From Candidatus Helarchaeota archaeon (GTDB lineage Archaea > Asgardarchaeota > Lokiarchaeia > Helarchaeales > RDOG01): 50,648 nucleotides of DNA. The DNA lies in the NCBI GenBank assembly GCA_029838215.1, contig JALGVI010000007.1:1-50648 (forward strand), read 5' to 3'. Shown here piece after piece: positions 39,537-40,783 of this stretch. Position numbers and translations under genes: made by a program. Positions within the stretch are counted from its first letter, which is position 1; the number at the start of each line of letters is the position of its first letter. The notes beneath the pieces were generated by a model. That model was not told the origin of the DNA. It searched no databases and was given only the letters and a program-made list of their open reading frames with translations.

Positions 39537-39908
39537 ATGGAATTCACATTCACTGACAAGGCACGAGAGCACATTGAAAAGAAATTGAGCGACCGACAAG
39601 AGCAAGGTATGTTCATTTTTACGATGTTACATCGCGGATGATCAGGAGCGTATAAAGAAATCATGATAGAAGTTGCACCGAAATCGCACGTCAGAAACAT
39701 CCAACTATTCCAAGAAGTTGGAGTTTTTAAGAGCGGAAACGGCGGTGGAGAACTTCCCATTTATATCGATCCTGAATCACGAAGGCATCTAGAAAGTCGA
39801 AAGGAAATCAAGATTGATGCTTATGGATGGTCGTTCATGAAGTATCTAACGATTCCTGATGCATACTTGCCTTATTACGGTTCAAGCGGCTCTTGTTCAA
39901 TGTGCTAA
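39537..39908 (+). CDS. HesB/IscA-like selenoprotein (Sec at codon 35, TGA 39639-39641)
   Basis: GAGGT then ATG 39537; MEFTFTDKAREHIEKKL...HRG-TGA-SGAY continues in frame into the 39663-39908 ORF; the motif matches HesB-family G-C-S-G..Y; SECIS-like hairpin 17 nt after the stop. Confidence 0.82.
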
Positions 39909-39917
39909 TCTTTCCAA

Positions 39918-39996
39918 AAGGAATGGTTTATGACCCCGATTCAAAAAGTTTGAGGAATCCGGGCGAAACCCAGGACATGCACCTGGCTCATTCCTT
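39918..39996 (+). promoter_or_regulatory. Eukaryote-like SECIS element (cis-acting mRNA kink-turn hairpin)
   Basis: GGUU/AACC stem, UAU bulge, tandem G.A/A.G (AUGA 39930-39933; GA 39965-39966), CCCGAUUC/GAAUCCGGG upper stem, apical loop starting AAAAA; outer AAGGAAU/AUUCCUU helix. Confidence 0.75.
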
Positions 39997-40030
39997 CCTT
40001 CCCTTTAAATTGAAGAAAAAGTGTTAAGAC

Positions 40031-40249
40031 ATGATCTCGGATTTGTACATCCCAAAAGTAACAGATCCAAAAAAGTGCGGCTATTGCGCGGCATGTGAGA
40101 AAACCTGCCCCGAAAAAGCCATCAAAATTGAAAATAATACATTTCATCTTGATGTTGAAAAGTGCTTGGGCAGGAAAAATGAATTTTGCGCTGCTTGTGT
40201 GGAAATTTGCCAACGCAAGATCCTCTCAATGGTTGAGGCACCCGTCTAA
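40031..40249 (+). CDS. 2x[4Fe-4S]-type ferredoxin
   Basis: CGYCAACEKTCP and CLG-x5-CAACVEICQ. Confidence 0.85.
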   Translation: MISDLYIPKVTDPKKCGYCAACEKTCPEKAIKIENNTFHLDVEKCLGRKNEFCAACVEICQRKILSMVEAPV

Positions 40250-40260
40250 AACATCTAAAT

Positions 40261-40632
40261 CTATTTTTCGATTATTTCGGGATAAATCAAAATATGTTTG
40301 TAATCTTCTGCCCACTGTTCTAGTGTCTTGAAAATCACGCTGAGAGCAGCTCCCTTGTCTGTTAATCGGTATTCCACGCGTGGAGGAATTTCATTGAATG
40401 CCTTGCGTTCAATAATACCCATTATGTCCAACTCCTTCAAGCGCTCTGAGAGCGTTTTGGGAGATATATCAAACCTTTTATAGATTTGATTATAGCGAAG
40501 TGGTTTATCTCGATTTTCGTAGAATAAGAAAATAATGGGCATCATGTGCTTTCGACCCAATAATTCAATCACGCAAGTCGCATCTCGGCATTGCTCTAAT
40601 TCTTCTTCCCTACTTAATTTTCTTGTCATCAT
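40261..40632 (-). CDS. HxlR-family transcriptional regulator
   Basis: LLGRKH, LRYNQI, ISPKTLSERLKEL, PPRVEYRLTDKG; start at 40632 with GGTGA. Confidence 0.9.
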   Translation of the reverse strand: MMTRKLSREEELEQCRDATCVIELLGRKHMMPIIFLFYENRDKPLRYNQIYKRFDISPKTLSERLKELDIMGIIERKAFNEIPPRVEYRLTDKGAALSVIFKTLEQWAEDYKHILIYPEIIEK

Positions 40633-40783
40633 CGTTTCACCTATATAAAATACATGCTTCAAATTTTGAAGTAACTTCAAACTTTTTAGCTTACTTCAGT
40701 TAATGAATAAGCTTTTATCAAATTTACTGATGTTATTTCAGTTCCAAGAATCATAATGAAGCGGTCGAAGAACCAAGCACGGA

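What the first reader, a model, noticed from the sequence alone, without database searches (positions are those of the whole stretch)
39918..39996. Eukaryote-type SECIS kink-turn embedded in a three-way junction
Seen: 17 nt after the stop, GGUU/AACC, a 3-nt UAU bulge, G.A/A.G, C.C, an 8-bp upper stem with one bulge and a loop starting AAAAA. It is enclosed by AAGGAAU/AUUCCUU with a side hairpin CAGG/CCUG. Established: AUGA...AA...GA is the eukaryotic SECIS core bound by L7Ae-family SBP2, unlike the methanogen SECIS. Inference: a functional SECIS with a shorter upper stem than the eukaryotic 11-12 bp and an extra domain, informative for SECIS evolution.
Basis: partly seen in the sequence, partly recalled or inferred. 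Interest (0 to 1): 0.82.

Follow-up and report, generated by a model that had tools for sequence, protein, structure and literature searches.

The report
Three-armed Asgard SECIS behind HesB-like gene
This 79-base RNA structure is a genuine selenocysteine-insertion signal of the eukaryote-like type already known from Asgard archaea. It serves a small IscA/HesB-like selenoprotein gene, and its extra closing helix and side hairpin are conserved parts of such signals that the papers I could read do not describe.

Summary
The region holds a closing helix P1, a kink-turn (P2 GGUU/AACC, bulge UAU, tandem G.A/A.G, C.C), a 9-position upper stem P3, the loop AAAAAGUUUGAG, and a side hairpin P4 (CAGG-ACAUGCA-CCUG).

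It lies 9 nt after the TAA stop of a 123-codon gene with an in-frame UGA at 39639. That gene has an IscA/HesB-like fold. Every relative whose codon I could read has TGA at the same site.

The genome is a Loki-class Asgard MAG with SelB, SepSecS, tRNA-Sec and Sec-SelD. A covariance model built only from elements of other genomes hits this interval at 52 bits (E 4e-12); the next hit in the window scores 17 bits.

P1, P3 and P4 covary in two sets chosen by protein similarity alone. One is the 3'UTRs of HesB-like homologs. The other is selD 3'UTRs, where 19/26 show the layout against 24% of shuffles. The P4 loop ends in GCN in 37/40 distinct elements.

The kind of element has been published since 2016 (lokiSECIS). 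The three-way junction and the HesB-like family are absent from the papers I could read. This scan has already reported the junction on other genomes. Function is inferred and has not been assayed.

The parts
39537..39908 (+). IscA/HesB-like selenoprotein gene (123 codons, stop TAA 39906-08)
   Evidence: Translation with TGA=U. Sub-threshold PF01521 matches over nearly the full length in 4 of 6 family members tested. The AlphaFold model (pLDDT 83) has IscA/SufA as its best PDB folds (1r94, 2d2a, 1x0g; prob 1.0, TM 0.5-0.6).
39639..39641 (+). In-frame UGA read as selenocysteine (U35, motif HRG-U-SGAY)
   Evidence: TGA sits at the aligned site in G006, L098, L099, L100, L101 and L103. Database gene calls show it as W, marked 'with_TGA=W'. 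No Cys form appeared among the 15 hits in 1.84 billion representatives.
39918..39924 (+). P1 5' arm (AAGGAAU), closing helix of the junction
   Evidence: Pairs with 39990-96. In the HesB set, 6 of 7 pairs show changes on both sides. In 30 elements from other genomes P1 is 92.5% paired.
39925..39928 (+). P2 5' arm (GGUU), C helix of the kink-turn
   Evidence: Pairs with AACC 39967-70. It equals the published 'lower stem'. It is only 2-4 bp in relatives.
39929..39934 (+). Kink-turn 5' strand: bulge UAU, sheared G39932 and A39933 (AUGA 39930-33), 3b C39934
   Evidence: Sequence. UGA is invariant across all alignments, preceded by A or G.
39935..39963 (+). P3 upper stem (39935-42 with 39955-63, C39960 bulged) and apical loop AAAAAGUUUGAG (39943-54)
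   Evidence: P3 is 98.7-100% paired, and most pairs show compensatory changes: 8 of 8 in A6 and 6 of 8 in the HesB set. The apical loop starts A-rich and ends in AG in 32 of 40 distinct elements.
39964..39970 (+). Kink-turn 3' strand: 3n C39964, G39965 A39966, then P2 3' arm AACC
   Evidence: Sequence. GA or AA occupies this place in all aligned elements.
39971..39985 (+). P4 side hairpin CAGG-ACAUGCA-CCUG
   Evidence: 98-100% paired, and all 4 pairs show changes on both sides. The loop ends in GCN in 37 of 40 and in GCA in 29 of 40 distinct elements.
39986..39996 (+). Junction strand GCUC and P1 3' arm AUUCCUU
   Evidence: RNAalifold predicts P1 on its own.
40031..40249 (+). Downstream 2x[4Fe-4S] ferredoxin gene, 35 nt after the element; probable same operon
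   Evidence: Pfam Fer4 families. A gene of the same kind follows the homolog in L098 and L103.
40261..40680 (-). Convergent HxlR-family regulator gene, conserved neighbour
   Evidence: PF01638. The same neighbour occurs in L098, L100 and L103.

Best explanation
The 79 nt are the SECIS element of the HesB/IscA-like selenoprotein mRNA. They belong to the Asgard 'lokiSECIS / eSECIS-like type I' class. The core is a kink-turn (C helix P2, 3-nt bulge, tandem sheared G.A/A.G from AUGA...GA). It presents a 9-position helix capped by an A-rich loop ending in AG. Shown here: the element exists, it belongs to a family found behind selenoprotein genes across this archaeal class, and four helices (P1-P4) forming a three-way junction are kept by compensatory changes. 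Inferred: the folded element, 9 nt after the stop and 289 nt after the UGA, recruits the archaeal SelB-GTP-Sec-tRNASec complex to ribosomes, so that UGA 39639 is read as Sec instead of stop. Recruitment would be direct or through an unidentified adaptor, since no SBP2 is known in Asgard archaea. Also inferred: P1 and P4 are working parts of the signal. They could hold the short C helix and the kink in place, or the conserved GCA loop could offer a second contact. The element sits between the Sec gene and a ferredoxin gene, so it probably acts from inside a polycistronic transcript.
For: The anatomy is as described. The upstream gene keeps TGA at the aligned site in all six relatives whose DNA I read, with protein conservation continuing past it. 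The gene has an IscA-like fold. The Sec machinery is in the genome: tRNA-Sec, SelB and SepSecS are clustered on C165, and SelD has a UGA. The same layout lies behind hdrA (C12) and selD (C55) in this genome. I found those two by folding the regions downstream of known Sec genes. Model R2 finds full-length matches in 50 of 61 sampled genomes of the class. The 30 best from other genomes show P1 92.5%, P3 98.7% and P4 98.2% paired, against 30-42% when partners are slid. R3, built only from those 30, hits 39918-39996 at 52.2 bits, E 4e-12. Sets chosen by protein alone agree. Five HesB-like homolog loci have a full element right after their stop, and a sixth (L099) has the core before its contig ends. 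With the own element, six full-length elements are 92.6% paired, and 19 of 23 pairs change on both sides. RNAalifold predicts P1, P3 and P4 unaided. In selD 3'UTRs 19 of 26 have the P1+P4 layout, against 24% of dinucleotide shuffles. The core features match the published lokiSECIS description: AUGA, 9-bp stem, about 11-nt loop with 5 leading A's and a final G, then GA (PMC4989117).
Against: There is no experimental evidence of Sec insertion, folding or binding for this or any Asgard SECIS in what I read. No RNA run was available. The fold energy is only modestly better than shuffles (z -2.1, and -0.4 with flanks). R2 and R3 include P1 and P4, so hits found with them lean towards that layout. 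Related genomes are not independent. P2 is weakly paired in relatives (63-74%). One Sec operon in this genome (hdrA-mvhD on C110) has a deviant version with about 1 bp of P2, which R2 did not report. Family f5 genomes gave 0 of 4 R2 hits although they have Sec-SelD. The upper stem has a bulge and a 12-nt loop where the canonical lokiSECIS has 9 bp and 11 nt.
Confidence: 0.85

Rival explanations
1. Only the kink-turn hairpin (P2-core-P3) is the SECIS. P1 and P4 would be a separate conserved structure with another job, such as transcript stabilisation, a processing site or insulation between cistrons, that merely travels with it.
For: Published models need only the lower stem, core, upper stem and loop (PMC4989117, PMC11227280). 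Eukaryotic SECIS elements work without such arms. The element here lies between two co-oriented genes. The L099 hit scores 26 bits on the core alone.
Against: P1 encloses the core and P4 is inserted between P2 and P1, so these are one fold and not neighbouring structures. The arrangement is kept behind unrelated gene families (HesB-like, hdrA, selD, others) and in many genera, with covariation and a conserved GCA loop. It occurs both at operon ends and inside operons.
Confidence: 0.1
2. The element is a generic L7Ae-binding kink-turn RNA, such as a regulatory or sRNA-like element, and is unrelated to selenocysteine. The UGA in the upstream gene would be an ordinary stop or a disruption.
For: Kink-turns are common L7Ae sites in archaea (established knowledge). 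No Rfam SECIS model matches, even at E<=10.
Against: There are no C/D box motifs (RUGAUGA...CUGA) in the element. Within this genome the model hits only behind UGA-containing genes. The reading frame after the UGA is conserved at the protein level in at least 6 relatives that all keep TGA. The Sec machinery is present.
Confidence: 0.03
3. It is a chance fold in an AT-rich intergenic spacer, or an intrinsic-terminator-like hairpin.
For: The energy z-score is weak with flanks (-0.4). My loose structural descriptors found many chance hits: 846, and 5 real against 3 in reversed sequence.
Against: A model built from other genomes gives E 4e-12 at exactly these coordinates. Orthologous 3'UTRs show compensatory changes. 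No T-tract follows the element.
Confidence: 0.02

Closest known systems
lokiSECIS (Mariotti et al. 2016, PMC4989117) = Asgard 'eSECIS-like type I' (Huang, Xiao & Zhang 2024, PMC11227280)
   Same: It lies in the 3'UTR just after the stop. AUGA comes before the stem and GA after it. The stem has 9 positions, and the loop opens with five A's and ends in AG. A short lower stem (P2) is present. The host is a Loki-class genome with archaeal Sec machinery and no SBP2.
   Different: The upper stem carries a 1-nt bulge and a C.C at its base, and the loop is 12 nt, not 11. It serves a HesB/IscA-like gene, a family absent from the five (2016) and seven (2024, and the 2026 review PMC13188914) Asgard selenoprotein families listed. 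The closing helix P1 and the side hairpin P4 with its GCA loop are not mentioned in the text of these papers. I could not see their figures or supplements.
Eukaryotic SECIS, form 1 (Rfam RF00031 SECIS_1)
   Same: Both share the AUGA/GA non-Watson-Crick quartet read as a kink-turn, unpaired A's in the apical loop at a fixed distance above the core, a 3'UTR location and action at a distance on UGA.
   Different: Helix II is shorter. There is no match to the Rfam model, even at E<=10. No SBP2 exists in the host lineage (literature). A three-way junction replaces a simple helix I. The element lies 9 nt after the stop in a probable polycistronic mRNA.
Euryarchaeal SECIS of Methanococcales/Methanopyrus (GAA_A bulge type), including that of their HesB-like selenoprotein
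   Same: It is an archaeal 3'UTR SECIS. The same biosynthetic machinery is used (PSTK/SepSecS pathway, aSelB). HesB-like selenoproteins are known there (PMC2933860 and PMC5054222, listed).
   Different: The core is different: there is no GAA_A bulge and no run of three G-C pairs. The AUGA/GA kink-turn is present in its place.
k-junction (Wang, Daldrop, Huang & Lilley 2014, NAR, PMC4005666; cited by PMC11227280)
   Same: A kink-turn is combined with a three-way helical junction on its C-helix side.
   Different: Here a short C helix (P2, 2-4 bp) still separates the kink from the junction. Only the C110 variant comes close to having no C helix. I recall the k-junction definition from memory and did not test it.

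Membership tests
lokiSECIS / Asgard eSECIS-like type I | AUGA immediately 5' of the upper stem and GA (or AA) immediately 3' of it | tested here: met
   AUGA is at 39930-33 and GA at 39965-66, flanking the stem with one C.C position.
lokiSECIS / Asgard eSECIS-like type I | Upper stem of 9 bp and apical loop of about 11 nt, with the first five nucleotides A-rich and the last a G preceded by A | tested here: met
   There are 9 positions (C.C plus 8 bp, with one bulged C). The loop is AAAAAGUUUGAG, 12 nt, ending in AG. This fits Huang's looser limits of 7-15 bp and 8-20 nt.
lokiSECIS / Asgard eSECIS-like type I | Lies just downstream of a gene with an in-frame UGA at a conserved Cys/Sec site, in a genome with Sec machinery | tested here: met
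   It lies 9 nt after the stop. The UGA at 39639 is conserved as TGA in homologs. tRNA-Sec, SelB, SepSecS and Sec-SelD are present.
lokiSECIS / Asgard eSECIS-like type I | Scores with a covariance model built from other members | tested here: met
   R3, built from 30 elements of other genomes, gives 52.2 bits and E 4e-12. The authors' own lokiSECISearch model was not available.
lokiSECIS / Asgard eSECIS-like type I | Supports Sec insertion at UGA | not testable with these tools
   There is no assay, and no RNA or proteome data.
Eukaryotic SECIS (Rfam RF00031) | Match to the family covariance model | tested here: not met
   No Rfam hit at gathering score or at E<=10 on 39860-40040. Mariotti et al. 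report the same for Loki elements.
Eukaryotic SECIS (Rfam RF00031) | AUGA/GA quartet plus an unpaired AA(R) in the apical loop | tested here: met
   Sequence.
Eukaryotic SECIS (Rfam RF00031) | Bound by SBP2 (L7Ae-domain protein) | not testable with these tools
   SBP2 is reported absent from all Asgard genomes (PMC4989117; PMC11227280). I did not search for it here.
Kink-turn (k-turn) motif | C helix, 3-nt bulge, tandem trans sugar-Hoogsteen G.A/A.G pairs, then the NC helix | tested here: inconclusive
   The sequence pattern fits exactly: GGUU/AACC, UAU, GA/GA, C.C, P3. The kinked geometry cannot be shown by secondary-structure tools.
Three-way-junction form of the Asgard SECIS (this scan's working model) | Closing helix P1 and side hairpin P4 supported by compensatory changes | tested here: met
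   The unbiased selD set gives 19 of 26 against 24% of shuffles.
Three-way-junction form of the Asgard SECIS (this scan's working model) | P4 loop ending in GCA/GCN | tested here: met
   The loop here is ACAUGCA. GCN ends 37 of 40 and GCA 29 of 40 distinct elements. Those elements were found with models that contain the motif.
HesB/IscA family (PF01521) for the upstream gene | Pfam gathering score | tested here: not met
   22 bits against a cut-off of 26.3. Relatives score 17.6-20 bits. The fold search nevertheless puts IscA/SufA first, so the gene is IscA-like by fold but not a Pfam member by score.

The most novel reading that the evidence does not exclude
The closing helix and the GCA-loop hairpin are required parts of the Asgard SECIS. 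They would either lock the kink-turn without SBP2 or form the docking site for the still unknown archaeal SECIS-binding factor (aSelB extension, L7Ae/L30e or the ribosome). On this reading the ancestor of the eukaryotic SECIS was a three-way junction that later lost an arm when SBP2 arose. Separately, the HesB/IscA-like family served here may be an obligate selenoprotein family (no Cys form found) that is new to the Asgard selenoproteome.
Probability: 0.35. Interest if true: 0.75.

Novelty: new member of a known kind. Interest (0 to 1): 0.5.

Why it matters
[quoted passage not shown] Asgard elements are taken as the bridge to the eukaryotic SECIS. This element adds a sixth widespread-type case, and it lies behind a gene family not yet listed for Asgard archaea. 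Along with its relatives, it shows that the conserved unit is larger than the published hairpin: a three-way junction with an almost invariant GCA loop. That gives concrete mutations to test and a better search model for missed selenoprotein genes. The scan has already reported the junction on other genomes, so the added value here is confirmation on protein-selected sets and the new host gene family.

Tried and rejected
- Rfam gave no family at gathering score over the whole window or at E<=10 over 39860-40040.
- Three hand-written descriptors were too loose to be evidence. They gave 233 hits, 33 hits and 846 hits. The strict three-way version gave 5 hits against 3 in reversed sequence. I used them only to pick seeds.
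- The MAFFT alignment of five elements (A1) was structurally wrong and I discarded it.
- The single-sequence model R1 over the whole genome found only itself and one weak hit.
- ARAGORN found no tRNA-Sec. The Rfam tRNA-Sec model found it.
- The search for homologous proteins returned only the window's own C-terminal ORF fragment.
- The PDB sequence search gave nothing meaningful.
- NCBIfam gave only a 15-bit TIGR00049 hint.
- No RNA holder was listed for the stretch.
- I found no complementary partner for the P4 GCA loop by eye in the apical loop or the junction strands, and I make no tertiary-contact claim.
- Complex prediction was not used, because no protein partner is known.
- I did not see the figures or supplements of the two key papers, so 'not described' rests on their text only.

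Full report
THE OBSERVATION

- P1 is AAGGAAU (39918-24) paired with AUUCCUU (39990-96).
- P2 is GGUU (39925-28) paired with AACC (39967-70).
- The bulge is UAU. Tandem G.A/A.G pairs form from AUGA (39930-33) and GA (39965-66), followed by a C.C position.
- P3 is an 8-bp helix with one bulged C.
- The apical loop is AAAAAGUUUGAG.
- P4 is CAGG-ACAUGCA-CCUG (39971-85).

The gene's TAA stop is at 39906-08. RNAfold recovers P1, P3 and P4 for the 79 nt (-24.9 kcal/mol, z -2.1). With flanks the energy is no better than shuffles (z -0.4). Folding energy alone would therefore not carry the claim. Rfam has no match at gathering score or at E<=10.

THE CONTEXT

The gene at 39537-39908 has an in-frame TGA at 39639-41. 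Read through, it gives a 123-residue protein with HRG-U-SGAY and a C-terminal GSC motif.
- It matches Pfam Fe-S_biosyn (HesB/IscA) below threshold: 22 bits against 26.3. Three relatives do the same.
- An AlphaFold model (pLDDT 83) has IscA and SufA structures as its best PDB folds.
- A profile search of 1.84 billion representatives found only 15 hits. The full-length ones carry W at the Sec column, and the DNA shows these are TGA codons ('with_TGA=W'). Others are fragments that begin or end at the TGA.
- In G006, L100, L101 and L103 I read the TGA directly.
- No Cys form was seen. Protein conservation continues past the UGA.

The gene is rare. It was found in 2 of 160 other genomes of the class, one of them without TGA and weakly matched.

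A 2x[4Fe-4S] ferredoxin gene follows in the window, L098 and L103. A convergent HxlR regulator gene is a neighbour in those three and in L100.

The genome is a 3.6-Mb MAG.
- tRNA-Sec, SelB and SepSecS lie side by side on contig C165.
- SelD has a UGA.
- SelD with one TGA occurs in 144 of 161 genomes of the class.
- Earlier scan notes name the genome a Loki-type Asgard archaeon. The published Lokiarchaeota picture fits.

IS IT A SECIS OF THE KNOWN ASGARD KIND?

Mariotti et al. (PMC4989117) define the lokiSECIS by AUGA before a 9-bp stem, an 11-nt loop whose first five bases are mostly A and whose last is G (usually preceded by A), and GA or AA after the stem. It lies close to the stop.

The element meets these features with small deviations: one bulge, a C.C at the stem base and a 12-nt loop. 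These lie within the looser limits of Huang et al..

For an independent test I built model R3 from 30 elements of other genomes only (A6). It matches 39918-39996 end to end at 52.2 bits (E 4e-12). The next hit in the window has 16.8 bits.

THE THREE-WAY JUNCTION

I folded the regions downstream of other Sec genes of this genome without any prior expectation. This gave the same layout behind hdrA (C12) and selD (C55), and a deviant one behind mvhD (C110).

The G006 ortholog of the HesB-like gene was found by protein similarity. Its 3'UTR has the same four helices with entirely different sequences.

A strict descriptor then found five sites in the genome. The other two are C111, behind a small ORF with UGA-UGA, and C132. 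The reversed-sequence control gave three hits, so I used the descriptor only for seeds.

Model R2 (seven seeds) finds full-length matches in 50 of 61 sampled genomes of the class. The 30 best from other genomes (A6) gave these results:

| Helix | Cells paired |
|---|---|
| P1 | 92.5% |
| P3 | 98.7% |
| P4 | 98.2% |
| Same structure with partners slid | 30-42% |

Every pair showed changes on both sides. These hits were found with a model that contains P1 and P4, so I added two sets chosen by protein alone.
- **HesB-like homolog loci.** L098, L100, L101/102, L103 and G006 each have a full-length element directly after the stop. In L099 the contig ends after the core. With the own element, 92.6% of cells pair. 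Six of 7 P1 pairs and 4 of 4 P4 pairs change on both sides. RNAalifold predicts P1, P3 and P4 unaided.
- **selD 3'UTRs of 26 genomes.** Of these, 19 have a P1+P4 layout of at least 10 bp around a UGA core, against 24% of dinucleotide shuffles. Visual inspection of the folds agrees.

The P4 loop ends in GCN in 37 of 40 and in GCA in 29 of 40 distinct elements. The apical loop ends in AG in 32 of 40.

P2, the published 'lower stem', is short (2-4 bp) and less well paired (63-74%).

MECHANISM

Shown here: membership, conservation and covariation.

Inferred from established knowledge of Sec decoding: the folded 3'UTR element brings aSelB-GTP-Sec-tRNASec to ribosomes, so that the UGA 289 nt upstream is decoded as Sec. 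Action at this distance and a minimum spacing were proposed for lokiSECIS.

The partner is unknown.

I consider it likely, but unproven, that P1 and P4 belong to the working signal. They could brace a very short C helix, or the GCA loop could be a second contact. The main rival is that only the kink-turn hairpin is the signal and the arms serve another purpose (about 0.1).

WHAT IS KNOWN AND WHAT IS NEW

The eukaryote-like Asgard SECIS has been published since 2016 and was surveyed in more than 400 genomes in 2024.

The words junction (apart from one title in a reference list), hairpin (likewise only in one reference title), three-way and HesB do not occur in the text of those papers. The 2026 review lists seven Asgard selenoprotein families without HesB-like. 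A full-text search for SECIS with 'three-way junction' found nothing relevant. I could not see figures or supplements.

This scan has already reported the conserved side hairpin and closing helix on other genomes (e1-5415297, e1-5393722, e1-5392994, e1-5504992, e1-2678843). The junction is therefore a repeat finding within the scan.

New here are the protein-selected covariation sets and the host gene family.

VERDICT

This is a real SECIS and a new member of a known kind. It carries a conserved architecture that refines the published model. Function has not been assayed.

Noticed in passing
G000 contig C132:1-432 (locus L062): A SECIS of the same three-armed type lies at 356-432. It follows an ORF, cut by the contig start, that looks like a membrane protein and ends ...APGP-U-GT-U-KIKLRHE. 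The last stop is the UGA of the SECIS AUGA core. Several in-frame TGAs are present, and no family was assigned.
   Followed up: partly
G000 contig C165:46182-48994: SelB, SepSecS and tRNA-Sec lie next to each other on one strand. The tRNA-Sec match spans 112 nt, longer than the 91-position model, so it may carry an intron like the one described for Lokiarchaeum.
   Followed up: partly
window 39537-40680; L098; L103; L100: The neighbourhood is conserved. The HesB/IscA-like Sec gene is followed by a small 2x[4Fe-4S] ferredoxin gene and a convergent HxlR-family regulator gene. In the window it lies directly after the cdhD/cdhE genes of acetyl-CoA decarbonylase/synthase.
   Followed up: partly
G000 contig C110:16050-16114(-) (locus L015:151-215): The SECIS behind hdrA-mvhD has P1, P3 and a P4 hairpin (loop UGCAA) but almost no P2, so it is closer to a k-junction. 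Models R1 and R2 did not report it.
   Followed up: partly
The genome search class sample, family f5 (genera g8, g11): None of 4 sampled genomes had an R2 match, although these genera have SelD with a UGA. Their selD 3'UTRs (L026, L028) look different or only partly similar. This may be a divergent SECIS subtype.
   Followed up: no
L033, L035, L036 (selD 3'UTRs of genus g26): The core reads UUGA where AUGA is expected, while P1, the type II upper part and P4 are kept. This is a core variant beyond the AUGA/GUGA variants listed in PMC11227280.
   Followed up: no
P0004, P0005, P0008, P0013, P0014: Public gene calls for this family read the Sec codon as Trp (code with TGA=W). These selenoproteins therefore sit in databases as apparently ordinary Trp-containing proteins.
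   Followed up: yes
G000 contig C111:41841-41916 (locus L061): A three-armed SECIS (70 bits with R2) follows a small ORF ending ...PDAGC-U-U-DPFED.... The core UGA is the likely stop, as an earlier first-reader note said.
   Followed up: partly
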